A stretch of 64,000 nucleotides of DNA from the human T2T-CHM13v2.0 reference genome, Homo sapiens. The stretch lies in assembly GCF_009914755.1 (NCBI RefSeq), contig NC_060944.1; one strand, 5' to 3'. The position numbers and the translations under genes were made by a program. Positions within the stretch are counted from its first letter, which is position 1. Every line of letters starts with the position of its first letter. The notes under the pieces were generated by a model that did not search any database, was not told the DNA's origin, and was given only the letters and a program-made list of their open reading frames with translations. Below, in pieces: positions 41,326-64,000 of the stretch.

Positions 41326-41639
41326 AGGAAAAAGAAAGCAGAGATGGGGACTAGTGGGGAGGGGGCTGGGGATGAGAGCCTCCCTGAGCTTCCACAGTTC
41401 TTCCTGCCCCTCTCCTATCTCACTGGGCACGGGCCACCTGGGGCTTCTGGTTGTTTTGTGCCAACTTAATATGTTGTTCTTGCCAACAGTCGGAGGCCAA
41501 CTGAGGCTTCTCTGTCTTCCACAAGGAACAGCATTGGCCTAAACCTGCAGGCACCATTGCAAAGGGGAGTCAGCTCAGGTAAACCTGCTGGTGAAGCATG
41601 ATTCCAGCGTGGGGACACAGAGGCTGATGTATCTTGCTG

Positions 41640-42080: not shown

Positions 42081-42109
42081 AGCAACAATGAAGATATTTC
42101 TCCATCAGT

Positions 42110-42950: not shown

Positions 42951-43264
42951 TTCTAGGAATCTCAACCAAGTAAATTCATAGTTTGAATGTTCACAAGACT
43001 TCTGCACAGGCAAAGTGAAAGATCGTTTCTAGAGCTGTGAGATAAGATCATAGTAAAAAAGAACTACTAAGTTTTTAAAGGTTATTTCAAATGATGGATT
43101 TCCATCTTACAAATGAATGCAAGTAGGTTGCAAGGTTGATGGAAAGCAGAAAAGTTTTCTGACTTGCGTGAACAGAAAAGAAACATCAATTTGAAAGGAA
43201 AACATTTATTTATTTACTTCCTCTACAGTTTTCCTGACTGCTACATTTCATGAGAAGGGATTGT

Positions 43265-46200
43265 TTATGAGGGTCAAGGAGCTGGAGGCCTGGGGAGGAG
43301 CTGGTGTTTCTGTTCAAGTTTGAGGGTCCTGGAGCTGGAGTCCAGGGGAGGAGCCGGTGCTGCCACTGATGTCTTAGGGTCGTGGAGCTGAAGATCCCAG
43401 AGGAGCCGGTGCAGCTATTCTAGCTTGAGTTTCGTGGAGCTGGAGACCCAGGGAGAAGATGGTGCTGCTGTTCTAATTTAAGGATCGTGAAACAGAAGAC
43501 CCAGAAAGGAGCTGGTGCTGCCGCTGCTCAGATCTGAGGGTGTTGGAGCTGGAGCCTGGGGGTGGAGCCGTTGCTGCCTTTGAAGTCTGAGAGTCATTGA
43601 GCTGGAAGTCCAGGAAGCAGCTGGTGCTGCTGTTCTAGTTTGAGGGTCGTGGAGCGCAGACCCAGGCAGAAGCAACATTGCTGTAGTTCGAGGGTCAGAA
43701 AGCTGGCGACCCAGGGAGGAGAGGTCTTGTTCTAGTTTCAGGGTCGTGGAGCTGCCAAACCAGGTAGGAGCAATTTTGTTGTAATTCGAAGGTCAGGAAG
43801 CTGGAGACCCGGGGAGGAGAGGTCTTGTTCTTGTCTGAGGGTTGTGGAGCTGCAGACCCAGGGAGGAGCAATGTTGTTGTAATTCGAGGGTCCGGCAGCT
43901 GGCAACCCGGGGAGGAGAAGTCTTGTTGGAGTTTGAGGGTCGTGGAGCTGCCGACCCAGGGAGGAGCTATTTTGTTGTAGTTCGAGGGTCTGGAAGCTGG
44001 TGACCCAGGGAGGAGAGGTCTTGATCTGGTCTGAGGGTCCTGGAGCTACAGACCCAGGGAGGAGCAATGTTGTAATTCAAGAGTCCGGTAGCTGACAACC
44101 GGCGGAAGAGAAGTCTTGTTCGAGTTTGAGGGTGGTGGAGCTGCAGACCCAGGGAGGAGCAATTTTGTTGTAGTCCGAGGGTCAGGAAGCTGGCGACCCA
44201 GGGAGGAGAGGTCTTGTTCTAGTTTGAGGGTCGTGGAGCTGCAGACCCAGGCAGAAGCATTGCTGTTTTAGTTCGAGGGTCCGGAAGCTGGCGACCCAGG
44301 GGGGAGAGGTCTTGTTCTAGTTTGACGTTCGTGGAGCTGCCGACCCAGGGAGGAGCAACGTTGTTGTAATTCGAGGGTCCGGAAGCTGGCGACCCAGGGA
44401 GGAGAGGTCTTGTTCTAGTTTGAGGGTCGTGGAGCTGCTGACCCAGGGAGGAGCAATTTTGTTGTAGTTCGAGGGTCAGGAAGCTGGCGACCCAGGGAGG
44501 AGAGGTCTTGTTCTGGTCTGAGGGTCGTGGAGCTGCTGACCCAGGGAGGAGCAATTTTGTTGTAGTTCGAGGGTCAGGAAGCTGGCGACCCAGGGAGGAG
44601 AGGTCTTGTTCTAGTTTGATGTTCGTGGAGCTGCAGACCCAGGCAGGAGCAACGTTGTTGCAATTCGAGGATCCGGAAGCTGGAGACTTAGGGAGGAGAC
44701 GTCTTGTTCTAGTTTCAGGGTCGTGGAGCTGCAGACTGAGGCAGGAGCATTGTTGTTATAGTTGGAGGTTCAGAAAGCTGGCGACCCAGGGAGGAGAGGT
44801 CTTGTTGTGGTCTGAGGGTCGTGGAGCTGCTGACCCAGGGAGGAGCAATTTTGTTGTAGTTTGAGGGTCAGGAAGCTGGCGACCCAGGGAGGAGAGGTCT
44901 TGTTCTAGATTGATTTTTGTGGAGCTGAGGACCCAGGCAGGAGCAAGGTTGTTGCAATTTGAGGATCCGGAAGCTGGAGACTTAGGGAGGAGACGTCTTG
45001 TTCTAGTTTCAGGGTCGTGGAGCTGCAGACTGAGGCAGGAGCATTATTGTTATAGTTGGAGGGTCAGAAAGCTGGCGACCCAGGGAGGAGAGGTCTTGTT
45101 GTGGTCTGAGGGTCGTGGAGCTGCTGATCCAGGGAGGAGCAATTTTGTTGTAGTTCGAGGGTCAGGAAGCTGGCGACCCAGGGAGGAGAGGTCTTGTTCT
45201 AGATTGATTTTTGTGGAGCTGAGGACCCAGGCAGGAGCAAGGTTGTTGCAATTTGAGGATCCGGAAGCTGGAGACTTAGGGAGGAGACGTCTTGTTCTAG
45301 TTTCAGGGTCGTGGAGCTGCAGACTGAGGCAGGAGCATTATTGTTATAGTTGGAGGGTCAGAAAGCTGGCGACCCAGGGAGGAGAGGTCTTGTTGTGGTC
45401 TGAGGGTCGTGGAGCTGCTGACCCAGGGAGGAGCAATTTTGTTGTAGTTCGAGGGTCTGGAAGCTGGCGACCCAGGGAGGAGAGGTCTTGTTCTAGATTG
45501 ATTTTTGTGGAGCTGAAGACCCAGGCAGGAGCAACGTTGTTGCAATTCGAGGATCTGGAAGCTGGAGACTTAGGGAGGAGACGTGTTGTTCTAGTTTCAG
45601 GGTCATGGAGCTGCAGACTGAGGCAGGAGCATTGTTGTTATAGTTCGAGGGTCAGAAAGCTGGCGACCCAGGGAGGAGAGGTCTTGTTGTGGTCTGAGGG
45701 TCGTGGAGCTGCTGACGCAGGGAGGAGCAATTTTGTTGTAGTTCGAGGGTCAGGAAGCTGGCGACCCAGGGAGGAGAGGTCTTCTTCTGGTGTGAGGGTC
45801 GTGGAGCTGCAGACCCAGGGAGGAGCAATTTTGTTGTAGTTTGAGGGTCTGGAAGCTGGCGACCCCGGGAGAGGTCTTGTACTAGTCTGAGGGTCGTGGA
45901 GCTGCAGACCCAGGGAGGGGCAATGTTGTTGTAATTCGAGGGTCTGGCAGCTGGCAACTCGGGGAGGAGAAGTGTTGTTGGAGTTTGAGGGTCATGGAGC
46001 TGCCAACCCAGGGAGGAGCAATTTTGTTGTAGTTCAAGGGTCCGGAAGCTGGTGACCCAGGGAGGAGAGGTCTTGATCTGGTCTGAGGGTCGTGGAGCTA
46101 CAGACCCAGGGAGGAGCAATGTTGTTGTAGTTCGAGGGTCCGGTAGCTGGCAACCCGGGAAAGAGAAGTCTTGTTCGAGTTTGAGGGTCGTGGAGCTGCA

Positions 46201-49200
46201 GACCCAGGGAGGAGCAATTTTGTTGTAGTTCGAGGGTCAGGAAGCTGGCGACCCAGGGAGGAGAGGTCTTGTTCTGGTCTGAGGGTCATGGAGCTGCTGT
46301 CCCAGGGAGGAGCAATTTTGTTGTTATTCGAGGGTCAGGAAGCTGGCGACCCAGGGAGGAGAGGTCTTGTTCTAGTTTGATGTTGGTGGAGCTGCAGACC
46401 CAGGCAGGAGGAACGTTGCTGTAGTTCGAGGGTCAGAAAGCTGGCGATGCAGGGAGAGGTCTTGTTGGAGTTTGAGGGTCGTGGAGCTGCCGACCCAGGG
46501 AGGAGCAATTTTGTTGTAGTTCGAGGGTCAGGAAGCTGGCGACCCAGGGAGGAGAGGTCTTGTTCTAGATTGATTTTTGTGGAGCTGAAGACCCAGGCAG
46601 GAGCAAGGTTGTTGCAATTCGAGGATCCGGAAGCTGGAGACTTAGGGAGGAGAGGTCTTGTTCTAGATTGATTTTTGTGGAGCTGAAGACCCAGGCAGGA
46701 GCAACGTTGTTGCAATTCGAGGATCCGGAAGCTGGAGACTTAGGGAGGAGACGTCTTGTTCTAGTTTCAGGGTCGTGGAGCTGCAGACTGAGGCAGGAGC
46801 ATTGTTGTTATAGTTCGAGGGTCAGAAAGCTGGCGACCCAGGGAGGAGAGGTCTTGTTCTGGTCTGAGGGTCGTGGAGCTGCAGACCCAGGGAGGAGCAA
46901 TTTTGTTGTAGTTCGAGGGTCAGGAAGCTGGCGACCCAGGGAGGAGAGGTCTTCTTCTGGTGTGAGGGTCGTGGAGCTGCAGACGCAGGGAGGAGCAATT
47001 TTGTTGTAGTTCAAGGGTCAGGAAGCTGGCGACCCAGGGAGGAGAGGTCTTGTTCTGGTCTGAGGGTCGTGGAGCTGCTGACCCAGGGAGGAGCAATTTT
47101 GTTGTAGTTCGAGGGTCAGGAAGCTGGCGACCCAGGGAGGAGAGGTCTTGTTCTAGTTTGATGTTCGTGGAGCTGCAGACCCAGGCAGGAGCAACGTTGT
47201 TGCAATTCGAGGATCCGGAAGCTGGAGACTTAGGGAGGAGACGTCTTGTTCTAGTTTCAGGGTCGTGGAGCTGCAGACTGAGGCAGGAGCATTGTTGTTA
47301 TAGTTGGAGGTTCAGAAAGCTGGCGACCCAGGGAGGAGAGGTCTTGTTGTGGTCTGAGGGTCGTGGAGCTGCTGATCCAGGGAGGAGCAATTTTGTTGTA
47401 GTTCGAGGGTCAGGAAGCTGGCGACCCAGGGAGGAGAGGTCTTGTTCTAGATTGATTTTTGTGGAGCTGAGGACCCAGGCAGGAGCAAGGTTGTTGCAAT
47501 TTGAGGATCCGGAAGCTGGAGACTTAGGGAGGAGACGTCTTGTTCTAGTTTCAGGGTCGTGGAGCTGCAGACTGAGGCAGGAGCATTATTGTTATAGTTG
47601 GAGGGTCAGAAAGCTGGCGACCCAGGGAGGAGAGGTCTTGTTGTGGTCTGAGGGTCGTGGAGCTGCTGACCCAGGGAGGAGCAATTTTGTTGTAGTTCGA
47701 GGGTCTGGAAGCTGGCGACCCAGGGAGGAGAGGTCTTGTTCTAGATTGATTTTTGTGGAGCTGAAGACCCAGGCAGGAGCAACGTTGTTGCAATTCGAGG
47801 ATCTGGAAGCTGGAGACTTAGGGAGGAGACGTGTTGTTCTAGTTTCAGGGTCATGGAGCTGCAGACTGAGGCAGGAGCATTGTTGTTATAGTTCGAGGTT
47901 CAGAAAGCTGGCGACCCAGGGAGGAGAGGTCTTGTTGTGGTCTGAGGGTCGTGGAGCTGCTGACGCAGGGAGGAGCAATTTTGTTGTAGTTCGAGGGTCA
48001 GGAAGCTGGCGACCCAGGGAGGAGAGGTCTTCTTCTGGTGTGAGGGTCGTGGAGCTGCAGACCCAGGGAGGAGCAATTTTGTTGTAGTTTGAGGGTCTGG
48101 AAGCTGGCGACCCCGGGAGAGGTCTTGTACTAGTCTGAGGGTCGTGGAGCTGCAGACCCAGGGAGGGGCAATGTTGTTGTAATTCGAGGGTCTGGCAGCT
48201 GGCAACTCGGGGAGGAGAAGTGTTGTTGGAGTTTGAGGGTCATGGAGCTGCCAACCCAGGGAGGAGCAATTTTGTTGTAGTTCAAGGGTCCGGAAGCTGG
48301 TGACCCAGGGAGGAGAGGTCTTGATCTGGTCTGAGGGTCGTGGAGCTACAGACCCAGGGAGGAGCAATGTTGTTGTAGTTCGAGGGTCCGGTAGCTGGCA
48401 ACCCGGGGAAGAGAAGTCTTGTTCGAGTTTGAGGGTCGTGGAGCTGCAGACCCAGGGAGGAGCAATTTTGTTGTAGTTCGAGGGTCAGGAAGCTGGCGAC
48501 CCAGGGAGGAGAGGTCTTGTTCTGGTCTGAGGGTCATGGAGCTGCTGTCCCAGGGAGGAGCAATTTTGTTGTTATTCGAGGGTCAGGAAGCTGGCGACGC
48601 AGGGAGGAGAGGTCTTGTTCTAGTTTGATGTTGGTGGAGCTGCAGACCCAGGCAGGAGGAACGTTGCTGTAGTTCGAGGGTCAGAAAGCTGGCGATGCAG
48701 GGAGAGGTCTTGTTGGAGTTTGAGGGTCGTGGAGCTGCCGACCCAGGGAGGAGCAATTTTGTTGTAGTTCGAGGGTCAGGAAGCTGGCGACCCAGGGAGG
48801 AGAGGTCTTGTTCTAGATTGATTTTTGTGGAGCTGAAGACCCAGGCAGGAGCAAGGTTGTTGCAATTCGAGGATCTGGAAGCTGGAGACTTAGGGAGGAG
48901 AGGTCTTGTTCTAGATTGATTTTTGTGGAGCTGAAGACCCAGGCAGGAGCAACGTTGTTGCAATTCGAGGATCCGGAAGCTGGAGACTTAGGGAGGAGAC
49001 GTCTTGTTCTAGTTTCAGGGTCGTGGAGCTGCAGACTGAGGCAGGAGCATTGTTGTTATAGTTCGAGGGTCAGAAAGCTGGCGACCCAGGGAGGAGAGGT
49101 CTTGTTCTGGTCTGAGGGTCGTGGAGCTGCAGACCCAGGGAGGAGCAATTTTGTTGTAGTTCGAGGGTCAGGAAGCTGGCGACCCAGGGAGGAGAGGTCT

Positions 49201-52200
49201 TCTTCTGGTGTGTGGGTCGTGGAGCTGCAGACGCAGGGAGGAGCAATTTTGTTGCAGTTCGACGGTCAGGAAGCTGGCGACCCAGGGAGAGGTCTTGTAC
49301 TAGTCTGAGGGTCGTGGAGCTGCAGACCCAGGGAGGGGCAATGTTGTTGTAATTCGAGGGTCTGGCAGCTGGCAACTCGGGCAGGAGAAGTCTTGTTGGA
49401 GTTTGAGGGTCGTGGAGCTGCCAACCCAGGGAGGAGCAATTTTGTTGTAGTTCAAGGGTCCGGAAGCTGGCGACCCAGGGAGGAGAGGTCTTGTTCTATT
49501 GTGAGGGTCGTGGAGCTGCCGACCCAGGGAGGAGCAATTTTGTTGTAATTTGAGGGTCCGGAAGCTGGCGACCCAGGGTGGAGAGGTCTTGATCCGGTCT
49601 GAGGGTCGTGGAGCTACAGACCCAGGGTGGAGCAATGTTGTTGTAGTTCGAGGGTCTGGTAGCTGGCAACTTGGGGAAGACAAGTCTTGTTCGAGTTCGA
49701 GGGTCGTGGAGCTGCAGACCCAGGGAGGAGCCATTTTGTTGTAGTTCAAGGGTCCGGAAACTGGCGACCCAGGGAGGAGAGGTCTTGTTCTAGTTTCAGG
49801 GTCGTGGAGCTTCTGACCCAGGGAGGAGCATTGTTGTTTTAGTTCGAGGGTCAGGAAGCTGGCGACCCAGGGAGGAGAGGTCTTGTTCTAGATTGATTTT
49901 TGTGGAGCTGAGGACCCAGGCAGGAGCAAGGTTGTTGCAATTTGAGGATCCGGAAGCTGGAGACTTAGGGAGGAGACGTCTTGTTCTAGTTTCAGGGTCG
50001 TGGAGCTGCAGACTGAGGCAGGAGCATTATTGTTATAGTTGGAGGGTCAGAAAGCTGGCGACCCAGGGAGGAGAGGTCTTGTTGTGGTCTGAGGGTCGTG
50101 GAGCTGCTGACCCAGGGAGGAGCAATTTTGTTGTAGTTCGAGGGTCTGGAAGCTGGCGACTCAGGGAGGAGAGGTCTTGTTCTAGATTGATTTTTGTGGA
50201 GCTGAAGACCCAGGCAGGAGCAACGTTGTTGCAATTCGAGGATCTGGAAGCTGGAGACTTAGGGAGGAGACGTGTTGTTCTAGTTTCAGGGTCATGGAGC
50301 TGCAGACTGAGGCAGGAGCATTGTTGTTATAGTTCGAGGGTCAGAAAGCTGGCGACCCAGGGAGGAGAGGTCTTGTTGTGGTCTGAGGGTCGTGGAGCTG
50401 CTGACGCAGGGAGGAGCAATTTTGTTGTAGTTCGAGGGTCAGGAAGCTGGCGACCCAGGGAGGAGAGGTCTTCTTCTGGTGTGAGGGTCGTGGAGCTGCA
50501 GACCCAGGGAGGAGCAATTTTGTTGTAGTTTGAGGGTCTGGAAGCTGGCGACCCCGGGAGAGGTCTTGTACTAGTCTGAGGGTCGTGGAGCTGCAGACCC
50601 AGGGAGGGGCAATGTTGTTGTAATTCGAGGGTCTGGCAGCTGGCAACTCGGGGAGGAGAAGTGTTGTTGGAGTTTGAGGGTCATGGAGCTGCCAACCCAG
50701 GGAGGAGCAATTTTGTTGTAGTTCAAGGGTCCGGAAGCTGGTGACCCAGGGAGGAGAGGTCTTGATCTGGTCTGAGGGTCGTGGAGCTACAGACCCAGGG
50801 AGGAGCAATGTTGTTGTAGTTCGAGGGTCCGGTAGCTGGCAACCCGGGAAAGAGAAGTCTTGTTCGAGTTTGAGGGTCGTGGAGCTGCAGACCCAGGGAG
50901 GAGCAATTTTGTTGTAGTTCGAGGGTCAGGAAGCTGGCGACCCAGGGAGGAGAGGTCTTGTTCTGGTCTGAGGGTCATGGAGCTGCTGTCCCAGGGAGGA
51001 GCAATTTTGTTGTTATTCGAGGGTCAGGAAGCTGGCGACCCAGGGAGGAGAGGTCTTGTTCTAGTTTGATGTTGGTGGAGCTGCAGACCCAGGCAGGAGG
51101 AACGTTGCTGTAGTTCGAGGGTCAGAAAGCTGGCGATGCAGGGAGAGGTCTTGTTGGAGTTTGAGGGTCGTGGAGCTGCCGACCCAGGGAGGAGCAATTT
51201 TGTTGTAGTTCGAGGGTCAGGAAGCTGGCGACCCAGGGAGGAGAGGTCTTGTTCTAGATTGATTTTTGTGGAGCTGAAGACCCAGGCAGGAGCAAGGTTG
51301 TTGCAATTCGAGGATCCGGAAGCTGGAGACTTAGGGAGGAGAGGTCTTGTTCTAGATTGATTTTTGTGGAGCTGAAGACCCAGGCAGGAGCAACGTTGTT
51401 GCAATTCGAGGATCCGGAAGCTGGAGACTTAGGGAGGAGACGTCTTGTTCTAGTTTCAGGGTCGTGGAGCTGCAGACTGAGGCAGGAGCATTGTTGTTAT
51501 AGTTCGAGGGTCAGAAAGCTGGCGACCCAGGGAGGAGAGGTCTTGTTCTGGTCTGAGGGTCGTGGAGCTGCAGACCCAGGGAGGAGCAATTTTGTTGTAG
51601 TTCGAGGGTCAGGAAGCTGGCGACCCAGGGAGGAGAGGTCTTCTTCTGGTGTGAGGGTCGTGGAGCTGCAGACGCAGGGAGGAGCAATTTTGTTGTAGTT
51701 CAAGGGTCAGGAAGCTGGCGACCCAGGGAGGAGAGGTCTTGTTCTGGTCTGAGGGTCGTGGAGCTGCTGACCCAGGGAGGAGCAATTTTGTTGTAGTTCG
51801 AGGGTCAGGAAGCTGGCGACCCAGGGAGGAGAGGTCTTGTTCTAGTTTGATGTTCGTGGAGCTGCAGACCCAGGCAGGAGCAACGTTGTTGCAATTCGAG
51901 GATCCGGAAGCTGGAGACTTAGGGAGGAGACGTCTTGTTCTAGTTTCAGGGTCGTGGAGCTGCAGACTGAGGCAGGAGCATTGTTGTTATAGTTGGAGGT
52001 TCAGAAAGCTGGCGACCCAGGGAGGAGAGGTCTTGTTGTGGTCTGAGGGTCGTGGAGCTGCTGATCCAGGGAGGAGCAATTTTGTTGTAGTTCGAGGGTC
52101 AGGAAGCTGGCGACCCAGGGAGGAGAGGTCTTGTTCTAGATTGATTTTTGTGGAGCTGAGGACCCAGGCAGGAGCAAGGTTGTTGCAATTTGAGGATCCG

Positions 52201-55200
52201 GAAGCTGGAGACTTAGGGAGGAGACGTCTTGTTCTAGTTTCAGGGTCGTGGAGCTGCAGACTGAGGCAGGAGCATTATTGTTATAGTTGGAGGGTCAGAA
52301 AGCTGGCGACCCAGGGAGGAGAGGTCTTGTTGTGGTCTGAGGGTCGTGGAGCTGCTGACCCAGGGAGGAGCAATTTTGTTGTAGTTCGAGGGTCTGGAAG
52401 CTGGCGACCCAGGGAGGAGAGGTCTTGTTCTAGATTGATTTTTGTGGAGCTGAAGACCCAGGCAGGAGCAACGTTGTTGCAATTCGAGGATCTGGAAGCT
52501 GGAGACTTAGGGAGGAGACGTGTTGTTCTAGTTTCAGGGTCATGGAGCTGCAGACTGAGGCAGGAGCATTGTTGTTATAGTTCGAGGTTCAGAAAGCTGG
52601 CGACCCAGGGAGGAGAGGTCTTGTTGTGGTCTGAGGGTCGTGGAGCTGCTGACGCAGGGAGGAGCAATTTTGTTGTAGTTCGAGGGTCAGGAAGCTGGCG
52701 ACCCAGGGAGGAGAGGTCTTCTTCTGGTGTGAGGGTCGTGGAGCTGCAGACCCAGGGAGGAGCAATTTTGTTGTAGTTTGAGGGTCTGGAAGCTGGCGAC
52801 CCCGGGAGAGGTCTTGTACTAGTCTGAGGGTCGTGGAGCTGCAGACCCAGGGAGGGGCAATGTTGTTGTAATTCGAGGGTCTGGCAGCTGGCAACTCGGG
52901 GAGGAGAAGTGTTGTTGGAGTTTGAGGGTCATGGAGCTGCCAACCCAGGGAGGAGCAATTTTGTTGTAGTTCAAGGGTCCGGAAGCTGGTGACCCAGGGA
53001 GGAGAGGTCTTGATCTGGTCTGAGGGTCGTGGAGCTACAGACCCAGGGAGGAGCAATGTTGTTGTAGTTCGAGGGTCCGGTAGCTGGCAACCCGGGGAAG
53101 AGAAGTCTTGTTCGAGTTTGAGGGTCGTGGAGCTGCAGACCCAGGGAGGAGCAATTTTGTTGTAGTTCGAGGGTCAGGAAGCTGGCGACCCAGGGAGGAG
53201 AGGTCTTGTTCTGGTCTGAGGGTCATGGAGCTGCTGTCCCAGGGAGGAGCAATTTTGTTGTTATTCGAGGGTCAGGAAGCTGGCGACGCAGGGAGGAGAG
53301 GTCTTGTTCTAGTTTGATGTTGGTGGAGCTGCAGACCCAGGCAGGAGGAACGTTGCTGTAGTTCGAGGGTCAGAAAGCTGGCGATGCAGGGAGAGGTCTT
53401 GTTGGAGTTTGAGGGTCGTGGAGCTGCCGACCCAGGGAGGAGCAATTTTGTTGTAGTTCGAGGGTCAGGAAGCTGGCGACCCAGGGAGGAGAGGTCTTGT
53501 TCTAGATTGATTTTTGTGGAGCTGAAGACCCAGGCAGGAGCAAGGTTGTTGCAATTCGAGGATCTGGAAGCTGGAGACTTAGGGAGGAGAGGTCTTGTTC
53601 TAGATTGATTTTTGTGGAGCTGAAGACCCAGGCAGGAGCAACGTTGTTGCAATTCGAGGATCCGGAAGCTGGAGACTTAGGGAGGAGACGTCTTGTTCTA
53701 GTTTCAGGGTCGTGGAGCTGCAGACTGAGGCAGGAGCATTGTTGTTATAGTTCGAGGGTCAGAAAGCTGGCGACCCAGGGAGGAGAGGTCTTGTTCTGGT
53801 CTGAGGGTCGTGGAGCTGCAGACCCAGGGAGGAGCAATTTTGTTGTAGTTCGAGGGTCAGGAAGCTGGCGACCCAGGGAGGAGAGGTCTTCTTCTGGTGT
53901 GTGGGTCGTGGAGCTGCAGACGCAGGGAGGAGCAATTTTGTTGCAGTTCGACGGTCAGGAAGCTGGCGACCCAGGGAGAGGTCTTGTACTAGTCTGAGGG
54001 TCGTGGAGCTGCAGACCCAGGGAGGGGCAATGTTGTTGTAATTCGAGGGTCTGGCAGCTGGCAACTCGGGCAGGAGAAGTCTTGTTGGAGTTTGAGGGTC
54101 GTGGAGCTGCCAACCCAGGGAGGAGCAATTTTGTTGTAGTTCAAGGGTCCGGAAGCTGGCGACCCAGGGAGGAGAGGTCTTGTTCTATTGTGAGGGTCGT
54201 GGAGCTGCCGACCCAGGGAGGAGCAATTTTGTTGTAATTTGAGGGTCCGGAAGCTGGCGACCCAGGGTGGAGAGGTCTTGATCCGGTCTGAGGGTCGTGG
54301 AGCTACAGACCCAGGGTGGAGCAATGTTGTTGTAGTTCGAGGGTCTGGTAGCTGGCAACTTGGGGAAGACAAGTCTTGTTCGAGTTCGAGGGTCGTGGAG
54401 CTGCAGACCCAGGGAGGAGCCATTTTGTTGTAGTTCAAGGGTCCGGAAACTGGCGACCCAGGGAGGAGAGGTCTTGTTCTAGTTTCAGGGTCGTGGAGCT
54501 TCTGACCCAGGGAGGAGCATTGTTGTTTTAGTTCGAGGGTCAGGAAGCTGGCGACCCAGGGAGGAGAGGTCTTGTTCTAGATTGATTTTTGTGGAGCTGA
54601 GGACCCAGGCAGGAGCAAGGTTGTTGCAATTTGAGGATCCGGAAGCTGGAGACTTAGGGAGGAGACGTCTTGTTCTAGTTTCAGGGTCGTGGAGCTGCAG
54701 ACTGAGGCAGGAGCATTATTGTTATAGTTGGAGGGTCAGAAAGCTGGCGACCCAGGGAGGAGAGGTCTTGTTGTGGTCTGAGGGTCGTGGAGCTGCTGAC
54801 CCAGGGAGGAGCAATTTTGTTGTAGTTCGAGGGTCTGGAAGCTGGCGACTCAGGGAGGAGAGGTCTTGTTCTAGATTGATTTTTGTGGAGCTGAAGACCC
54901 AGGCAGGAGCAACGTTGTTGCAATTCGAGGATCTGGAAGCTGGAGACTTAGGGAGGAGACGTGTTGTTCTAGTTTCAGGGTCATGGAGCTGCAGACTGAG
55001 GCAGGAGCATTGTTGTTATAGTTCGAGGGTCAGAAAGCTGGCGACCCAGGGAGGAGAGGTCTTGTTGTGGTCTGAGGGTCGTGGAGCTGCTGACGCAGGG
55101 AGGAGCAATTTTGTTGTAGTTCGAGGGTCAGGAAGCTGGCGACCCAGGGAGGAGAGGTCTTCTTCTGGTGTGAGGGTCGTGGAGCTGCAGACCCAGGGAG

Positions 55201-58200
55201 GAGCAATTTTGTTGTAGTTTGAGGGTCTGGAAGCTGGCGACCCCGGGAGAGGTCTTGTACTAGTCTGAGGGTCGTGGAGCTGCAGACCCAGGGAGGGGCA
55301 ATGTTGTTGTAATTCGAGGGTCTGGCAGCTGGCAACTCGGGGAGGAGAAGTGTTGTTGGAGTTTGAGGGTCATGGAGCTGCCAACCCAGGGAGGAGCAAT
55401 TTTGTTGTAGTTCAAGGGTCCGGAAGCTGGTGACCCAGGGAGGAGAGGTCTTGATCTGGTCTGAGGGTCGTGGAGCTACAGACCCAGGGAGGAGCAATGT
55501 TGTTGTAGTTCGAGGGTCCGGTAGCTGGCAACCCGGGAAAGAGAAGTCTTGTTCGAGTTTGAGGGTCGTGGAGCTGCAGACCCAGGGAGGAGCAATTTTG
55601 TTGTAGTTCGAGGGTCAGGAAGCTGGCGACCCAGGGAGGAGAGGTCTTGTTCTGGTCTGAGGGTCATGGAGCTGCTGTCCCAGGGAGGAGCAATTTTGTT
55701 GTTATTCGAGGGTCAGGAAGCTGGCGACCCAGGGAGGAGAGGTCTTGTTCTAGTTTGATGTTGGTGGAGCTGCAGACCCAGGCAGGAGGAACGTTGCTGT
55801 AGTTCGAGGGTCAGAAAGCTGGCGATGCAGGGAGAGGTCTTGTTGGAGTTTGAGGGTCGTGGAGCTGCCGACCCAGGGAGGAGCAATTTTGTTGTAGTTC
55901 GAGGGTCAGGAAGCTGGCGACCCAGGGAGGAGAGGTCTTGTTCTAGATTGATTTTTGTGGAGCTGAAGACCCAGGCAGGAGCAAGGTTGTTGCAATTCGA
56001 GGATCCGGAAGCTGGAGACTTAGGGAGGAGAGGTCTTGTTCTAGATTGATTTTTGTGGAGCTGAAGACCCAGGCAGGAGCAACGTTGTTGCAATTCGAGG
56101 ATCCGGAAGCTGGAGACTTAGGGAGGAGACGTCTTGTTCTAGTTTCAGGGTCGTGGAGCTGCAGACTGAGGCAGGAGCATTGTTGTTATAGTTCGAGGGT
56201 CAGAAAGCTGGCGACCCAGGGAGGAGAGGTCTTGTTCTGGTCTGAGGGTCGTGGAGCTGCAGACCCAGGGAGGAGCAATTTTGTTGTAGTTCGAGGGTCA
56301 GGAAGCTGGCGACCCAGGGAGGAGAGGTCTTCTTCTGGTGTGAGGGTCGTGGAGCTGCAGACGCAGGGAGGAGCAATTTTGTTGTAGTTCAAGGGTCAGG
56401 AAGCTGGCGACCCAGGGAGGAGAGGTCTTGTTCTGGTCTGAGGGTCGTGGAGCTGCTGACCCAGGGAGGAGCAATTTTGTTGTAGTTCGAGGGTCAGGAA
56501 GCTGGCGACCCAGGGAGGAGAGGTCTTGTTCTAGTTTGATGTTCGTGGAGCTGCAGACCCAGGCAGGAGCAACGTTGTTGCAATTCGAGGATCCGGAAGC
56601 TGGAGACTTAGGGAGGAGACGTCTTGTTCTAGTTTCAGGGTCGTGGAGCTGCAGACTGAGGCAGGAGCATTGTTGTTATAGTTGGAGGTTCAGAAAGCTG
56701 GCGACCCAGGGAGGAGAGGTCTTGTTGTGGTCTGAGGGTCGTGGAGCTGCTGATCCAGGGAGGAGCAATTTTGTTGTAGTTCGAGGGTCAGGAAGCTGGC
56801 GACCCAGGGAGGAGAGGTCTTGTTCTAGATTGATTTTTGTGGAGCTGAGGACCCAGGCAGGAGCAAGGTTGTTGCAATTTGAGGATCCGGAAGCTGGAGA
56901 CTTAGGGAGGAGACGTCTTGTTCTAGTTTCAGGGTCGTGGAGCTGCAGACTGAGGCAGGAGCATTATTGTTATAGTTGGAGGGTCAGAAAGCTGGCGACC
57001 CAGGGAGGAGAGGTCTTGTTGTGGTCTGAGGGTCGTGGAGCTGCTGACCCAGGGAGGAGCAATTTTGTTGTAGTTCGAGGGTCTGGAAGCTGGCGACCCA
57101 GGGAGGAGAGGTCTTGTTCTAGATTGATTTTTGTGGAGCTGAAGACCCAGGCAGGAGCAACGTTGTTGCAATTCGAGGATCTGGAAGCTGGAGACTTAGG
57201 GAGGAGACGTGTTTTTCTAGTTTCAGGGTCATGGAGCTGCAGACTGAGGCAGGAGCATTGTTGTTATAGTTCGAGGTTCAGAAAGCTGGCGACCCAGGGA
57301 GGAGAGGTCTTGTTGTGGTCTGAGGGTCGTGGAGCTGCTGACGCAGGGAGGAGCAATTTTGTTGTAGTTCGAGGGTCAGGAAGCTGGCGACCCAGGGAGG
57401 AGAGGTCTTCTTCTGGTGTGAGGGTCGTGGAGCTGCAGACCCAGGGAGGAGCAATTTTGTTGTAGTTTGAGGGTCTGGAAGCTGGCGACCCCGGGAGAGG
57501 TCTTGTACTAGTCTGAGGGTCGTGGAGCTGCAGACCCAGGGAGGGGCAATGTTGTTGTAATTCGAGGGTCTGGCAGCTGGCAACTCGGGGAGGAGAAGTG
57601 TTGTTGGAGTTTGAGGGTCATGGAGCTGCCAACCCAGGGAGGAGCAATTTTGTTGTAGTTCAAGGGTCCGGAAGCTGGTGACCCAGGGAGGAGAGGTCTT
57701 GATCTGGTCTGAGGGTCGTGGAGCTACAGACCCAGGGAGGAGCAATGTTGTTGTAGTTCGAGGGTCCGGTAGCTGGCAACCCGGGGAAGAGAAGTCTTGT
57801 TCGAGTTTGAGGGTCGTGGAGCTGCAGACCCAGGGAGGAGCAATTTTGTTGTAGTTCGAGGGTCAGGAAGCTGGCGACCCAGGGAGGAGAGGTCTTGTTC
57901 TGGTCTGAGGGTCATGGAGCTGCTGTCCCAGGGAGGAGCAATTTTGTTGTTATTCGAGGGTCAGGAAGCTGGCGACGCAGGGAGGAGAGGTCTTGTTCTA
58001 GTTTGATGTTGGTGGAGCTGCAGACCCAGGCAGGAGGAACGTTGCTGTAGTTCGAGGGTCAGAAAGCTGGCGATGCAGGGAGAGGTCTTGTTGGAGTTTG
58101 AGGGTCGTGGAGCTGCCGACCCAGGGAGGAGCAATTTTGTTGTAGTTCGAGGGTCAGGAAGCTGGCGACCCAGGGAGGAGAGGTCTTGTTCTAGATTGAT

Positions 58201-61200
58201 TTTTGTGGAGCTGAAGACCCAGGCAGGAGCAAGGTTGTTGCAATTCGAGGATCTGGAAGCTGGAGACTTAGGGAGGAGAGGTCTTGTTCTAGATTGATTT
58301 TTGTGGAGCTGAAGACCCAGGCAGGAGCAACGTTGTTGCAATTCGAGGATCCGGAAGCTGGAGACTTAGGGAGGAGACGTCTTGTTCTAGTTTCAGGGTC
58401 GTGGAGCTGCAGACTGAGGCAGGAGCATTGTTGTTATAGTTCGAGGGTCAGAAAGCTGGCGACCCAGGGAGGAGAGGTCTTGTTCTGGTCTGAGGGTCGT
58501 GGAGCTGCAGACCCAGGGAGGAGCAATTTTGTTGTAGTTCGAGGGTCAGGAAGCTGGCGACCCAGGGAGGAGAGGTCTTCTTCTGGTGTGTGGGTCGTGG
58601 AGCTGCAGACGCAGGGAGGAGCAATTTTGTTGCAGTTCGACGGTCAGGAAGCTGGCGACCCAGGGAGAGGTCTTGTACTAGTCTGAGGGTCGTGGAGCTG
58701 CAGACCCAGGGAGGGGCAATGTTGTTGTAATTCGAGGGTCTGGCAGCTGGCAACTCGGGCAGGAGAAGTCTTGTTGGAGTTTGAGGGTCGTGGAGCTGCC
58801 AACCCAGGGAGGAGCAATTTTGTTGTAGTTCAAGGGTCCGGAAGCTGGCGACCCAGGGAGGAGAGGTCTTGTTCTATTGTGAGGGTCGTGGAGCTGCCGA
58901 CCCAGGGAGGAGCAATTTTGTTGTAATTTGAGGGTCCGGAAGCTGGCGACCCAGGGTGGAGAGGTCTTGATCCGGTCTGAGGGTCGTGGAGCTACAGACC
59001 CAGGGTGGAGCAATGTTGTTGTAGTTCGAGGGTCTGGTAGCTGGCAACTTGGGGAAGACAAGTCTTGTTCGAGTTCGAGGGTCGTGGAGCTGCAGACCCA
59101 GGGAGGAGCCATTTTGTTGTAGTTCAAGGGTCCGGAAACTGGCGACCCAGGGAGGAGAGGTCTTGTTCTAGTTTCAGGGTCGTGGAGCTTCTGACCCAGG
59201 GAGGAGCATTGTTGTTTTAGTTCGAGGGTCAGGAAGCTGGCGACCCAGGGAGGAGAGGTCTTGTTCTAGATTGATTTTTGTGGAGCTGAGGACCCAGGCA
59301 GGAGCAAGGTTGTTGCAATTTGAGGATCCGGAAGCTGGAGACTTAGGGAGGAGACGTCTTGTTCTAGTTTCAGGGTCGTGGAGCTGCAGACTGAGGCAGG
59401 AGCATTATTGTTATAGTTGGAGGGTCAGAAAGCTGGCGACCCAGGGAGGAGAGGTCTTGTTGTGGTCTGAGGGTCGTGGAGCTGCTGACCCAGGGAGGAG
59501 CAATTTTGTTGTAGTTCGAGGGTCTGGAAGCTGGCGACTCAGGGAGGAGAGGTCTTGTTCTAGATTGATTTTTGTGGAGCTGAAGACCCAGGCAGGAGCA
59601 ACGTTGTTGCAATTCGAGGATCTGGAAGCTGGAGACTTAGGGAGGAGACGTGTTGTTCTAGTTTCAGGGTCATGGAGCTGCAGACTGAGGCAGGAGCATT
59701 GTTGTTATAGTTCGAGGGTCAGAAAGCTGGCGACCCAGGGAGGAGAGGTCTTGTTGTGGTCTGAGGGTCGTGGAGCTGCTGACGCAGGGAGGAGCAATTT
59801 TGTTGTAGTTCGAGGGTCAGGAAGCTGGCGACCCAGGGAGGAGAGGTCTTCTTCTGGTGTGAGGGTCGTGGAGCTGCAGACCCAGGGAGGAGCAATTTTG
59901 TTGTAGTTTGAGGGTCTGGAAGCTGGCGACCCCGGGAGAGGTCTTGTACTAGTCTGAGGGTCGTGGAGCTGCAGACCCAGGGAGGGGCAATGTTGTTGTA
60001 ATTCGAGGGTCTGGCAGCTGGCAACTCGGGGAGGAGAAGTGTTGTTGGAGTTTGAGGGTCATGGAGCTGCCAACCCAGGGAGGAGCAATTTTGTTGTAGT
60101 TCAAGGGTCCGGAAGCTGGTGACCCAGGGAGGAGAGGTCTTGATCTGGTCTGAGGGTCGTGGAGCTACAGACCCAGGGAGGAGCAATGTTGTTGTAGTTC
60201 GAGGGTCCGGTAGCTGGCAACCCGGGAAAGAGAAGTCTTGTTCGAGTTTGAGGGTCGTGGAGCTGCAGACCCAGGGAGGAGCAATTTTGTTGTAGTTCGA
60301 GGGTCAGGAAGCTGGCGACCCAGGGAGGAGAGGTCTTGTTCTGGTCTGAGGGTCATGGAGCTGCTGTCCCAGGGAGGAGCAATTTTGTTGTTATTCGAGG
60401 GTCAGGAAGCTGGCGACCCAGGGAGGAGAGGTCTTGTTCTAGTTTGATGTTGGTGGAGCTGCAGACCCAGGCAGGAGGAACGTTGCTGTAGTTCGAGGGT
60501 CAGAAAGCTGGCGATGCAGGGAGAGGTCTTGTTGGAGTTTGAGGGTCGTGGAGCTGCCGACCCAGGGAGGAGCAATTTTGTTGTAGTTCGAGGGTCAGGA
60601 AGCTGGCGACCCAGGGAGGAGAGGTCTTGTTCTAGATTGATTTTTGTGGAGCTGAAGACCCAGGCAGGAGCAAGGTTGTTGCAATTCGAGGATCCGGAAG
60701 CTGGAGACTTAGGGAGGAGAGGTCTTGTTCTAGATTGATTTTTGTGGAGCTGAAGACCCAGGCAGGAGCAACGTTGTTGCAATTCGAGGATCCGGAAGCT
60801 GGAGACTTAGGGAGGAGACGTCTTGTTCTAGTTTCAGGGTCGTGGAGCTGCAGACTGAGGCAGGAGCATTGTTGTTATAGTTCGAGGGTCAGAAAGCTGG
60901 CGACCCAGGGAGGAGAGGTCTTGTTCTGGTCTGAGGGTCGTGGAGCTGCAGACCCAGGGAGGAGCAATTTTGTTGTAGTTCGAGGGTCAGGAAGCTGGCG
61001 ACCCAGGGAGGAGAGGTCTTCTTCTGGTGTGAGGGTCGTGGAGCTGCAGACGCAGGGAGGAGCAATTTTGTTGTAGTTCAAGGGTCAGGAAGCTGGCGAC
61101 CCAGGGAGGAGAGGTCTTGTTCTGGTCTGAGGGTCGTGGAGCTGCTGACCCAGGGAGGAGCAATTTTGTTGTAGTTCGAGGGTCAGGAAGCTGGCGACCC

Positions 61201-64000
61201 AGGGAGGAGAGGTCTTGTTCTAGTTTGATGTTCGTGGAGCTGCAGACCCAGGCAGGAGCAACGTTGTTGCAATTCGAGGATCCGGAAGCTGGAGACTTAG
61301 GGAGGAGACGTCTTGTTCTAGTTTCAGGGTCGTGGAGCTGCAGACTGAGGCAGGAGCATTGTTGTTATAGTTGGAGGTTCAGAAAGCTGGCGACCCAGGG
61401 AGGAGAGGTCTTGTTGTGGTCTGAGGGTCGTGGAGCTGCTGATCCAGGGAGGAGCAATTTTGTTGTAGTTCGAGGGTCAGGAAGCTGGCGACCCAGGGAG
61501 GAGAGGTCTTGTTCTAGATTGATTTTTGTGGAGCTGAGGACCCAGGCAGGAGCAAGGTTGTTGCAATTTGAGGATCCGGAAGCTGGAGACTTAGGGAGGA
61601 GACGTCTTGTTCTAGTTTCAGGGTCGTGGAGCTGCAGACTGAGGCAGGAGCATTATTGTTATAGTTGGAGGGTCAGAAAGCTGGCGACCCAGGGAGGAGA
61701 GGTCTTGTTGTGGTCTGAGGGTCGTGGAGCTGCTGACCCAGGGAGGAGCAATTTTGTTGTAGTTCGAGGGTCTGGAAGCTGGCGACCCAGGGAGGAGAGG
61801 TCTTGTTCTAGATTGATTTTTGTGGAGCTGAAGACCCAGGCAGGAGCAACGTTGTTGCAATTCGAGGATCTGGAAGCTGGAGACTTAGGGAGGAGACGTG
61901 TTTTTCTAGTTTCAGGGTCATGGAGCTGCAGACTGAGGCAGGAGCATTGTTGTTATAGTTCGAGGTTCAGAAAGCTGGCGACCCAGGGAGGAGAGGTCTT
62001 GTTGTGGTCTGAGGGTCGTGGAGCTGCTGACGCAGGGAGGAGCAATTTTGTTGTAGTTCGAGGGTCAGGAAGCTGGCGACCCAGGGAGGAGAGGTCTTCT
62101 TCTGGTGTGAGGGTCGTGGAGCTGCAGACCCAGGGAGGAGCAATTTTGTTGTAGTTTGAGGGTCTGGAAGCTGGCGACCCCGGGAGAGGTCTTGTACTAG
62201 TCTGAGGGTCGTGGAGCTGCAGACCCAGGGAGGGGCAATGTTGTTGTAATTCGAGGGTCTGGCAGCTGGCAACTCGGGGAGGAGAAGTGTTGTTGGAGTT
62301 TGAGGGTCATGGAGCTGCCAACCCAGGGAGGAGCAATTTTGTTGTAGTTCAAGGGTCCGGAAGCTGGTGACCCAGGGAGGAGAGGTCTTGATCTGGTCTG
62401 AGGGTCGTGGAGCTACAGACCCAGGGAGGAGCAATGTTGTTGTAGTTCGAGGGTCCGGTAGCTGGCAACCCGGGGAAGAGAAGTCTTGTTCGAGTTTGAG
62501 GGTCGTGGAGCTGCAGACCCAGGGAGGAGCAATTTTGTTGTAGTTCGAGGGTCAGGAAGCTGGCGACCCAGGGAGGAGAGGTCTTGTTCTGGTCTGAGGG
62601 TCATGGAGCTGCTGTCCCAGGGAGGAGCAATTTTGTTGTTATTCGAGGGTCAGGAAGCTGGCGACGCAGGGAGGAGAGGTCTTGTTCTAGTTTGATGTTG
62701 GTGGAGCTGCAGACCCAGGCAGGAGGAACGTTGCTGTAGTTCGAGGGTCAGAAAGCTGGCGATGCAGGGAGAGGTCTTGTTGGAGTTTGAGGGTCGTGGA
62801 GCTGCCGACCCAGGGAGGAGCAATTTTGTTGTAGTTCGAGGGTCAGGAAGCTGGCGACCCAGGGAGGAGAGGTCTTGTTCTAGATTGATTTTTGTGGAGC
62901 TGAAGACCCAGGCAGGAGCAAGGTTGTTGCAATTCGAGGATCTGGAAGCTGGAGACTTAGGGAGGAGAGGTCTTGTTCTAGATTGATTTTTGTGGAGCTG
63001 AAGACCCAGGCAGGAGCAACGTTGTTGCAATTCGAGGATCCGGAAGCTGGAGACTTAGGGAGGAGACGTCTTGTTCTAGTTTCAGGGTCGTGGAGCTGCA
63101 GACTGAGGCAGGAGCATTGTTGTTATAGTTCGAGGGTCAGAAAGCTGGCGACCCAGGGAGGAGAGGTCTTGTTCTGGTCTGAGGGTCGTGGAGCTGCAGA
63201 CCCAGGGAGGAGCAATTTTGTTGTAGTTCGAGGGTCAGGAAGCTGGCGACCCAGGGAGGAGAGGTCTTCTTCTGGTGTGTGGGTCGTGGAGCTGCAGACG
63301 CAGGGAGGAGCAATTTTGTTGCAGTTCGACGGTCAGGAAGCTGGCGACCCAGGGAGAGGTCTTGTACTAGTCTGAGGGTCGTGGAGCTGCAGACCCAGGG
63401 AGGGGCAATGTTGTTGTAATTCGAGGGTCTGGCAGCTGGCAACTCGGGCAGGAGAAGTCTTGTTGGAGTTTGAGGGTCGTGGAGCTGCCAACCCAGGGAG
63501 GAGCAATTTTGTTGTAGTTCAAGGGTCCGGAAGCTGGCGACCCAGGGAGGAGAGGTCTTGTTCTATTGTGAGGGTCGTGGAGCTGCCGACCCAGGGAGGA
63601 GCAATTTTGTTGTAATTTGAGGGTCCGGAAGCTGGCGACCCAGGGAGGAGAGGTCTTGATCCGGTCTGAGGGTCGTGGAGCTACAGACCCAGGGTGGAGC
63701 AATGTTGTTGTAGTTCGAGGGTCTGGTAGCTGGCAACTTGGGGAAGACAAGTCTTGTTCGAGTTCGAGGGTCGTGGAGCTGCAGACCCAGGGAGGAGCCA
63801 TTTTGTTGTAGTTCAAGGGTCCGGAAACTGGCGACCCAGGGAGGAGAGGTCTTGTTCTAGTTTCAGGGTCGTGGAGCTTCTGACCCAGGGAGGAACATTG
63901 TTGTTTTAGTTCGAGGGTCAGGAAGCTGGCGACCCAGGGAGGAGAGGTCTTGTTCTGGTTTGAGGGTCGTGGAGCCGCAGACCCAGGGAGGAGCAATGTT
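43265..64000. repeat. SATR1/SATR2-like interstitial satellite array (49-bp monomer, 98-bp dimer), open at the window end
   Basis: Alternating monomers A gagggtcgtggagctgcagacccagggaggagcaattttgttgtagttc and B gagggtcaggaagctggcgacccagggaggagaggtcttgttctagttt; the family name is from recall. Confidence 0.95.
45204..63959. repeat. Four tandem copies of a 4689-bp higher-order repeat
   Basis: Near-identical ORF-track entries recur every 4689 bp (47050/51739/56428/61117; 45652/50341/55030/59719). Confidence 0.97.

What the first reader, a model, noticed from the sequence alone, without database searches (positions are those of the whole stretch)
45204..63959. 96-monomer (4689-bp) higher-order repeat with a multi-level hierarchy in a SATR-like satellite
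Seen: 49-bp monomers A and B (38/49 identical) form a 98-bp dimer. A 294-bp unit recurs locally. SpeI sites (ACTAGT at 45881, 48129, 49299, 50570) define blocks of 2248 (46x49-6), 1170 (24x49-6) and 1271 bp (26x49-3), summing to 4689 = 96x49-15. The deficit is exactly explained by five 3-bp contractions of the GGAGGAG tract. The four copies are nearly identical. Inference: a recently amplified, copy-number-variable macrosatellite-scale HOR, likely collapsed in older assemblies.
Basis: seen in the sequence. Interest (0 to 1): 0.8.

Follow-up and report, generated by a model that had tools for sequence, protein, structure and literature searches.

The report
Four-copy 4.7-kb repeat inside D20S16 satellite
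A 4,689-base block of a known human chromosome 20 satellite (D20S16, not SATR) has been copied four times in a row almost without error, which is a real but ordinary product of unequal recombination in a tandem array.

Summary
A 49/98-bp array runs from 43631 to 64393. Inside it, a 4689-bp unit of 48 dimers (96 monomers) is repeated exactly 4.0 times, at 45151-63906, with only 4 single-base differences among the copies. The arithmetic 96x49-15 holds: there are five 3-bp deletions per unit, all in the GGAGGAG tract of B monomers. The hierarchy 49 -> 98 -> 294 -> 2248 -> 4689 is real.

The family label is wrong. By unit structure, location and chromosomal spread this is D20S16, a VNTR satellite described in 1995 and catalogued in T2T-CHM13 in 2025. 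This array is very probably that paper's "chr20#2" (483 units). I found no printed description of the 4689-bp unit.

The unit arose by out-of-register exchange within a 50-bp B monomer that is identical at two sites 4689 bp apart. Copy divergence of 0.02-0.09% suggests roughly the last 1 My or less.

The array has an inverted paralogue about 60 kb upstream, built from the same dimers in a different order.

The RefSeq "protein-coding" model over the array looks like a repeat artefact.

Copy-number variation and collapse in older assemblies are plausible but were not tested here.

This is low-to-moderate interest: a new structural detail of a known satellite.

The parts
43268..43655 (+). Outer layer on the 5' side: diverged 53-bp monomers of the same satellite
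   Evidence: TRF gives period 53, 7.3 copies, 67% matches. A matching 53-bp layer lies beyond the window at 64406-67263.
43631..45150 (+). 49/98-bp dimer array upstream of the amplified block (dimers p0-p15). Its last ~550 bp are ~83% like the end of the unit.
   Evidence: TRF gives period 98. Windowed lag-4689 identity is 0.83-0.88 at 44601-45150. Dimer table.
45151..49839 (+). Copy 1 of the 4689-bp unit (48 dimers = 96 monomers, five 3-bp deletions)
49840..54528 (+). Copy 2 of the 4689-bp unit
   Evidence: Differs from copy 1 at one site, 45472 C versus 50161 T.
54529..59217 (+). Copy 3 of the 4689-bp unit
   Evidence: Differs from copy 2 at one site, 52525 G versus 57214 T.
59218..63906 (+). 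Copy 4 of the 4689-bp unit
   Evidence: Differs from copy 3 at 63646 and 63895.
63907..64000 (+). Start of the 49/98-bp dimers that follow the block (q0-q4). They run on to 64393, beyond the window. The first 50 bp are identical to 45151-45200, which is the crossover tract.
   Evidence: locus L011 = window 60001-70000
45151..47041 (+). Older internal duplication. This stretch recurs 2248 bp downstream (47399-49289) at about 99.6% identity, and the same is true in each of the four units.
   Evidence: At lag 2248 there are 8 mismatches between 45151 and 47041, after which identity breaks down. In the dimer matrix, dimers 0-17 match dimers 23-40.
47161..48087 (+). 308-codon open frame over three tandem 294-bp units. 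It is repeated at 51850, 56539 and 61228, the last being the RefSeq CDS of LOC124908110. It is probably a chance frame.

Best explanation
This is the largest chromosome 20 array of the D20S16 satellite, a primate minisatellite-type repeat whose 98-bp unit is a dimer of two 49-bp monomers.

The array is layered. Old 53-bp monomers lie at both edges and a 49/98-bp core lies between them. Inside the core, one 4689-bp segment of 48 different dimers has been amplified to four tandem copies.

The segment was first duplicated by an out-of-register homologous exchange (unequal sister-chromatid or interhomologue crossover, or replication template switching). The exchange took place between two consensus B monomers that are identical over 50 bp and lie 4689 bp apart. 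Further unequal exchanges between the now-identical 4.7-kb units raised the count to four.

The block itself most likely has no sequence-specific function. It is a neutral, probably copy-number-unstable structural product of array dynamics.

Shown here: the anatomy, the crossover tract, the order of events (the 2248-bp duplication came before the 4689-bp amplification) and the family.

Inferred: the recombination mechanism, the age (roughly 0.2-0.9 My from 1-4 differences per 4689 bp, at about 0.5e-9 per bp per year, a textbook rate) and the polymorphism.
For: Period and identity.

Four full copies with 4 variant sites in a stepwise pattern. The copy haplotypes form a chain in which copies 1/2 and 2/3 differ at one site each and copies 3/4 at two.

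Crossover tract. The junction copies match the 3' context to the left and the 5' context to the right of a 50-bp B monomer shared by 45151-45200 and 63907-63956.

Five 3-bp deletions per unit.

Monomers inside the unit are diverged: A-A 83%, B-B 87%, A-B 67%, with 34 distinct dimers of 48. Whole units are more than 99.9% alike.

The internal 2248-bp duplication (about 99.6%) carries the same differences in all four units, so it is older.

Layering: 53-bp monomers on both sides.

The inverted paralogous array about 60 kb upstream uses the same dimers (91 dimers, mean best identity 98.9%, 40 identical) in a different order, with its own long-lag repeats. It has no h47-to-h0 junction. So large-register exchange is habitual in this satellite, and the 4x block is specific to this arm.

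Of 10 other arrays of the family examined, only the inverted partner and the two chr3 arrays showed 600-bp windows of 98% identity or more at long lags. None had a clean multi-kb period.

The dimer folds as single-stranded DNA into a long hairpin (z -3.9 and -2.7 on the + strand, with 0 and 3 of 200 shuffles as stable). This would favour fork stalling and slippage.

Family: Hu et al. 2025, Results and Discussion read. The paper's 483 units for chr20#2 fit 23,995 bp at 49.7 bp per unit.
Against: Only one haplotype was seen, so polymorphism is unproven.

Reads were not available, so an assembly error in an 18.8-kb block of near-identical sequence cannot be formally excluded.

The age estimate ignores gene conversion and any raised mutation rate in a CpG-containing, G-rich array.

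Family-level reports of transcription (embryo, testis) and of telomere contacts in ALT cells leave room for a function of D20S16 arrays. However, Hu et al. found embryonic expression from chr20#4 and #5, not from #2.

The assignment of this array to 'chr20#2' rests on unit count and order. The paper's coordinate table is an image that I could not read.
Confidence: 0.85

Rival explanations
1. Assembly artefact: the four copies are a false expansion, or a mis-resolved version, of a shorter or longer true array in CHM13.
For: The block is 18.8 kb at more than 99.97% identity, close to HiFi read length. I could not inspect any reads.
Against: The copies are not identical. Four single-base markers distinguish them in an ordered pattern, which gives an assembler anchors. 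The boundaries fall in a clean 50-bp shared monomer, as expected from real unequal exchange. The independently assembled inverted partner array shows the same kind of long-register repeats. Hu et al. count 483 units in chr20#2 from the same assembly, but that is not independent evidence.
Confidence: 0.04
2. The array is a real protein-coding gene (LOC124908110) whose 308-aa product is encoded in the repeat.
For: A 308-codon ATG-to-stop frame is present in all four units. A copy in the inverted partner array shares 303 of 308 residues. Between the two arms there are 4 synonymous and 5 non-synonymous differences, a ratio below 1 but based on 9 changes.
Against: The frame covers only the three tandem 294-bp units (294 = 98 codons), so it is a 98-residue peptide repeated three times. 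No Pfam family reaches its cut-off; the best is 19.7 bits against a cut-off of 27. All 11 listed exon ends and all 9 exon starts fall at one and the same phase of the 98-bp dimer. The sequence upstream of every 'acceptor' is purine-rich with no pyrimidine tract, so each 'intron' is a whole number of dimers, for example 977 and 294 bp. That is what register-shifted alignments in a repeat give. With arms only about 1% apart, survival of an open frame is expected by chance. By the hub's table the array is not soft-masked in NCBI's file: only 9% of the window is masked, and no listed masked stretch (the table gives only the longest) lies past 41374. This explains why the gene predictor ran over it.
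Confidence: 0.03
3. The amplified block is functional as DNA or RNA, for example as a dense platform of nuclear-receptor half-sites that tethers ALT telomeres, or as a source of a developmentally expressed satellite RNA. On this view its expansion was favoured by selection.
For: GGGTCA occurs 117 times in the 20.8-kb array against 9 times in the 43 kb of flank. A 2025 preprint reports telomere contacts at D20S16 arrays on 20q13.13, strongest in ALT cells, and proposes orphan nuclear receptors as the bridge. Its main text does not mention the motif. That GGGTCA is the half-site created by the variant telomere repeat is from my own knowledge. Hu et al. report D20S16 RNA in early embryos and testis.
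Against: Embryonic expression came from chr20#4 and #5, not from #2. The half-sites are 49-98 bp apart, not close direct repeats. Nothing ties the 4x amplification itself to these properties. The pattern is fully explained by neutral unequal exchange. No Rfam family matches.
Confidence: 0.08

Closest known systems
D20S16 satellite / VNTR (Bowden et al. 1995, Genomics 25:394, not held, known to me only through citation; Hu, Mizuguchi and Hashimoto 2025, PMC12287470, Results and Discussion read)
   Same: It has a 98-bp unit made of two 49-bp subunits and the conserved CAGCT (AGCTG on this strand) anchor. It lies in the five-array cluster on CHM13 chr20 at 49.57-50.29 Mb. It has relatives on chromosomes 2, 3, 5-9 and 20. 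It includes 47/49/50/53-bp unit types, and it is the largest array (483 units).
   Different: The paper shows a dot plot and speaks of a 'high-order' structure only for chr20#4. The 4689-bp x4 unit, its internal 2248-bp duplication, the crossover tract and the inverted-partner relationship of arrays #1 and #2 are not in the parts I read.
Alpha-satellite higher-order repeats
   Same: Diverged monomers sit inside a unit whose copies are nearly identical. Young, homogeneous sequence lies in the core and old, diverged monomers at the edges. Both are generated by unequal exchange.
   Different: The monomer is 49 bp rather than 171 bp. The location is interstitial and euchromatic, not centromeric. 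There are only four unit copies rather than hundreds to thousands. The unit itself contains nested duplications.
Macrosatellites (for example D4Z4, DXZ4; named from my own knowledge)
   Same: A kilobase-scale unit (4.7 kb) in tandem, probably variable in copy number.
   Different: Here the unit is itself wholly made of a short satellite, the copy number is very low (4), and no gene or CpG-island promoter is evident in the unit (CpG o/e 0.49).
SATR1/SATR2 satellites
   Same: Both are interstitial or subtelomeric primate satellites with short units. Passages of a macaque T2T preprint and of Hoyt et al. 2021 mention SATR1 as an interstitial satellite.
   Different: Nothing I read links SATR to this locus, and the published RepeatMasker label for these chr20 arrays is D20S16. 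No SATR consensus was available to test.

Membership tests
D20S16 satellite | 98-bp tandem unit composed of two related 49-bp subunits | tested here: met
   TRF gives period 98, 208.5 copies. Anchor spacing is 49 bp 356 times. Consensus A and consensus B share 38 of 49 positions.
D20S16 satellite | Conserved CAGCT motif in each unit (the criterion used by Hu et al. 2025) | tested here: met
   AGCTG (the reverse complement of CAGCT) recurs at 49-bp (356 times) or 46-bp (20 times) spacing through the array.
D20S16 satellite | Location in the chr20q13.1 cluster (CHM13 chr20 49.571-50.286 Mb) and relatives on chromosomes 2, 3, 5-9 | tested here: met
   The window is chr20:49,600,001-49,664,000. 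A whole-genome search found relatives on chromosomes 2, 3, 5, 6, 7, 8, 9 and 20 only.
D20S16 satellite | Match to the Repbase/Dfam D20S16 consensus or HMM | not testable with these tools
   No repeat library is held. The paper's coordinate table (Table S1) is an image without text.
SATR1/SATR2 | Match to the SATR consensus | not testable with these tools
Papers mentioning SATR1 give no unit sequence or this locus.
Higher-order repeat | Monomers within a unit clearly diverged from one another | tested here: met
   Mean identity is A-A 83%, B-B 87%, A-B 67%. There are 34 distinct dimers of 48.
Higher-order repeat | Successive units nearly identical (well above monomer identity) | tested here: met
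   1 to 4 differences per 4689 bp between units.
Higher-order repeat | Unit repeated many times as a homogenised array | tested here: inconclusive
   There are only 4.0 copies. It could equally be called a four-fold tandem segmental amplification.
Macrosatellite / VNTR | Copy number differs between individuals | not testable with these tools
   One haplotype only. The literature states that D20S16 is polymorphic in repeat number without saying which array.
Protein-coding gene (LOC124908110) | Introns with functional splice signals independent of the repeat register | tested here: not met
   All 20 listed exon boundaries sit at dimer index 93|94, and the acceptors are preceded by a purine run.
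Protein-coding gene (LOC124908110) | Recognisable protein domain or purifying selection | tested here: inconclusive
   No Pfam hit above cut-off. There are 4 synonymous and 5 non-synonymous differences between the two arms.

The most novel reading that the evidence does not exclude
Arrays #1 and #2 of D20S16 form the cores of an inverted segmental duplication. The arms are about 26 kb and 37 kb, with unique flanks 97-99% identical, about 47 kb apart. The two arms reshuffle the same set of about 70 dimer types independently by kilobase-register exchange.

On this reading, the four-copy 4689-bp block is a human-lineage expansion of one arm, less than about 1 My old and still polymorphic. It would be the molecular basis of one of the classical hypervariable D20S16 'alleles'. 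Its roughly 5.6 GGGTCA half-sites per kb would make array length a genetic modifier of the reported nuclear-receptor-mediated telomere contacts in ALT cells.
Probability: 0.2. Interest if true: 0.45.

Novelty: new member of a known kind. Interest (0 to 1): 0.27.

Why it matters
This corrects a family label: the satellite is D20S16, not SATR.

It gives base-level anatomy of the largest D20S16 array in the complete human genome, including the exact crossover tract that created its 4.7-kb unit.

It flags two RefSeq 'protein-coding' models (LOC124908110 here, and probably LOC124908109 on the inverted partner) as likely repeat artefacts.

If the block varies in copy number, it would be a convenient long-read or Southern marker. 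It would also be a confounder for short-read expression and 3D-contact studies of D20S16, which are now appearing in work on embryos, cancer and ALT telomeres.

It does not change how satellites are understood to evolve.

Tried and rejected
1. SATR identity. A search for 'SATR1' returned 28 papers. Passages of two of them gave nothing tying SATR to this locus, so the label was dropped in favour of D20S16.

2. Prior description of the unit.
- 'higher order repeat / chromosome 20 / T2T-CHM13 / 49 bp' returned 16 papers.
- 'D20S16' returned 23 papers.
- 'CRI-L1214' (probe name recalled from memory) returned 0.
- '20q13.13' plus 'macrosatellite' returned 0.
- 'LOC124908110' returned 0.
- The GRMhor paper on chromosome 20 deals with alpha satellite only and holds no '4689', '98 bp' or '49 bp'.
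- Subscription journals and closed supplements were not searchable.

3. Bowden 1995 is not held.

It was rejected as an explanation for instability.

6. Rfam has no family at gathering score in 43000-50500.

7. Coding reading: see the rivals.

8. I looked for clean multi-kb periods in 10 other arrays of the family. There were none. The inverted partner and the two chr3 arrays have local long-lag near-identity.


Full report
**1. The observation**

Tandem Repeats Finder reports one array of period 98 from 43631 to the window end (208.5 copies, 83% matches). It is preceded by 7.3 copies of a 53-bp unit at 43268-43655.

SpeI sites fall at 45881, 48129, 49299 and 50570 and then repeat. The spacings 2248/1170/1271 recur with a sum of 4689.

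Ungapped self-comparison over 43631-64000 peaks at lag 4689 (0.955). Next come 9378 (0.936), 98 (0.792), 2248 (0.738), 294 (0.721) and 49 (0.663). In 200-bp windows the lag-4689 identity rises from about 0.83-0.88 (44601-45150) to 1.0 at 45151 and stays there. Only three mismatches occur, at 45472, 52525 and 58957, until the comparison reaches 63895. Three SpeI-anchored units differ from each other at 0, 1 and 1 positions.

**2. Extent**

Locus L011 (window 60001-70000) shows three things:
- The near-perfect period ends at about 63900.
- The 98-bp array ends at about 64393.
- About 2.9 kb of diverged 53-bp monomers follows (64406-67263), including a short inverted patch.

So the array is layered: 53-bp monomers at both edges, a 49/98-bp core, and the amplified block inside the core.

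**3. Arithmetic and hierarchy**

A wrap-around alignment of 43631-64393 to the 98-mer consensus gives 20,761 matched columns, 66 deleted columns and 2 inserted bases.

Within the block, the only indels are five 3-bp deletions per unit. All lie in the GGAGGAG tract of the B monomer (consensus positions 83-87), at 45865, 46451, 48113, 48699 and 49284, and at the same offsets in the next units. Hence 4689 = 96x49-15.

Consensus A and B share 38 of 49 positions.

Inside one unit, mean monomer identity is:

| Comparison | Mean identity |
|---|---|
| A-A | 83% |
| B-B | 87% |
| A-B | 67% |

Of the 48 dimers, 34 are distinct.

The 48x48 dimer matrix shows a three-dimer (294-bp) motif at dimers 0-5 and 20-28. 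It also shows that dimers 0-17 recur as dimers 23-40. At lag 2248 there are 8 mismatches between 45151 and 47041 (about 99.6% identity), then identity breaks down. These differences are the same in all four units, so the 2248-bp duplication predates the 4689-bp amplification.

**4. The junction**

I aligned the five contexts at phase 45151+k*4689. The internal junctions match the 3' context on the left and the 5' context on the right of a 50-bp consensus B monomer. That monomer is identical at 45151-45200 and 63907-63956. This is the signature of an out-of-register homologous exchange within that monomer.

Counting from 45151, the block is four complete units (45151-63906).

Four sites distinguish the copies:
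- 45472: copy 1 has C, the others T.
- 47836/52525 have G; 57214/61903 have T.
- 63646: copy 4 has A, the others T.
- 63895: copy 4 only.

Copies 1/2 and 2/3 differ at one site each and copies 3/4 at two, which fits stepwise growth.

With a textbook rate of about 0.5e-9 per bp per year, 1-4 differences per 4689 bp correspond to roughly 0.2-0.9 My. This is an inference, and gene conversion would bias it downward.

**5. What the satellite is**

A search of the window's genome with 980 bp of the array found relatives only on chromosomes 2, 3, 5, 6, 7, 8, 9 and 20. The best were chr7:57.46 Mb (85%) and chr20:49.89 Mb (83%, inverted).

A literature search led to Hu, Mizuguchi and Hashimoto 2025 (PMC12287470). 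I read its Results and Discussion and searched its supplement. The paper states:
- D20S16 is a polymorphic satellite at 20q12-q13.1 made of 98-bp units, each of two 49-bp subunits.
- RepeatMasker places 38 pieces in five clusters at CHM13 chr20 49.571-50.286 Mb and others on chromosomes 2, 3 and 5-9.
- Units fall into 47-, 49-, 50- and 53-bp types.
- chr20#2 is the largest element, with 483 units.

The satellite here spans 43268-67263, which is 23,995 bp, or 483 units at 49.7 bp. It is the second array in order; I found another at 49.571-49.584 Mb. So it is very probably chr20#2. The paper's coordinate table is an image, so this is not proven.

'SATR-like' is therefore not supported. Nothing in the SATR passages I read concerns this locus.

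I found no printed mention of the 4689-bp unit; the searches are listed under what was tried. Hu et al. show a dot plot only for chr20#4.

**6. Surroundings**

Array A lies at about window -28478 to -16239. It is an inverted paralogue of this array:

| Flank | This array | Array A | Identity | Aligned length |
|---|---|---|---|---|
| Outer | 67270-73716 | -28478..-34918 | 98.9% | 6451 bp |
| Inner | 41061-43260 | -14046..-16239 | 98.8% | 2202 bp |
| Inner | 37067-41064 | -10140..-14143 | 96.9% | 4009 bp |

Cut into dimers, A consists of the same dimer types. Over 91 dimers the mean best identity is 98.9%, and 40 are identical. The dimers are in a different order, with A's own long-lag repeats at 3714, 2541, 1173 and 1957 bp. 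A always has dimer h47 followed by q0, never by h0. So the four-copy block is specific to this arm and younger than the divergence of the arms.

Among 10 other arrays examined, only A and the two chr3 arrays had windows of 98% identity or more at long lags, and none had a clean multi-kb period.

**7. The gene model**

The annotated CDS (61228-62154) is a 308-codon frame present in each unit. It covers the three tandem 294-bp motifs, so the product is a 98-residue peptide repeated three times. No Pfam family reaches its cut-off.

All 11 exon ends and 9 exon starts given for the locus fall at the same dimer phase (index 93|94, GGAGAG|GTCTTG). Every 'intron' is therefore a whole number of dimers (977 bp or 294 bp), and every 'acceptor' follows a purine run rather than a pyrimidine tract. 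I read these as register-shifted alignments.

Array A holds the same frame, with 303 of 308 residues identical and 4 synonymous against 5 non-synonymous changes. That is too few to judge.

The hub's table implies that the array is not soft-masked in NCBI's file, which would explain the prediction.

**8. Other properties**

- The + strand is 38.7% G and 16.5% C. GC content is 55% and CpG o/e is 0.49.
- GGGTCA occurs 117 times in the array, against 9 times in 43 kb of flank.
- A dimer as single-stranded DNA folds into a long hairpin: z -3.9 and -2.7 for the two dimers on the + strand, and similar on the - strand.
- There is no PRDM9-type 13-mer and no Rfam match.
- A 2025 preprint reports telomere contacts at 20q13.13 D20S16 arrays, strongest in ALT cells, and suggests orphan nuclear receptors as the bridge (passages). 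The half-site density may be relevant, but that is a lead only.

**9. Verdict**

It is best explained as a recent four-fold tandem amplification by unequal exchange inside the largest D20S16 array, on top of older nested duplications.

Copy-number variation and collapse in older assemblies are plausible: D20S16 was defined as a VNTR, and total D20S16 is longer in CHM13 than in hg19/hg38. Neither was tested here.

This is a new structural detail of a known satellite, of modest interest.

Noticed in passing
window 37067-74559 versus about -35871..-10140 (chr20:49,564,129-49,589,860; loci L012, L013, L024, L026, L027): This array and the one about 60 kb upstream are the cores of an inverted duplication. 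The unique flanks are 96.9-98.9% identical, and the arm-length difference (about 11.8 kb) lies in the satellite. An inverted pair like this could mediate inversion of the roughly 47-kb spacer, which includes most of the left part of the window.
   Followed up: partly
about -27149..-17237, outside the window (LOC124908109 in the hub's table): The neighbouring 'protein-coding' model on the minus strand coincides with the inverted partner array. That array holds the same 308-codon frame (303 of 308 residues identical, at -19846..-20772). It is probably the mirror image of the same annotation artefact.
   Followed up: partly
window 43631-64393: GGGTCA, a nuclear-receptor half-site and the hexamer created by the variant telomere repeat (from my own knowledge), occurs 117 times in 20.8 kb against 9 times in 43 kb of flank. 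A 2025 preprint proposes nuclear receptors as the bridge between D20S16 and ALT telomeres but does not mention the motif in its main text.
   Followed up: partly
-7111..-1762 versus 74593..79935 (outside the window on both sides): A second inverted match of 5.4 kb at 91.6% identity, not collinear with the main inverted duplication. This suggests a more complex duplication history of the region.
   Followed up: no
L017 (chr3:200.368-200.378 Mb) and L018 (chr3:198.349-198.359 Mb): The 47-bp-type arrays near the end of chromosome 3q also contain 600-bp windows of 98-99% identity at long lags (2022 and 897 bp). Large-register duplication is therefore not confined to the chromosome 20 arrays.
   Followed up: no
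window 65285-65526 (locus L011 5285-5526): A short patch of 53/54-bp monomers lies in the opposite orientation inside the 3' outer layer of the array.
   Followed up: no
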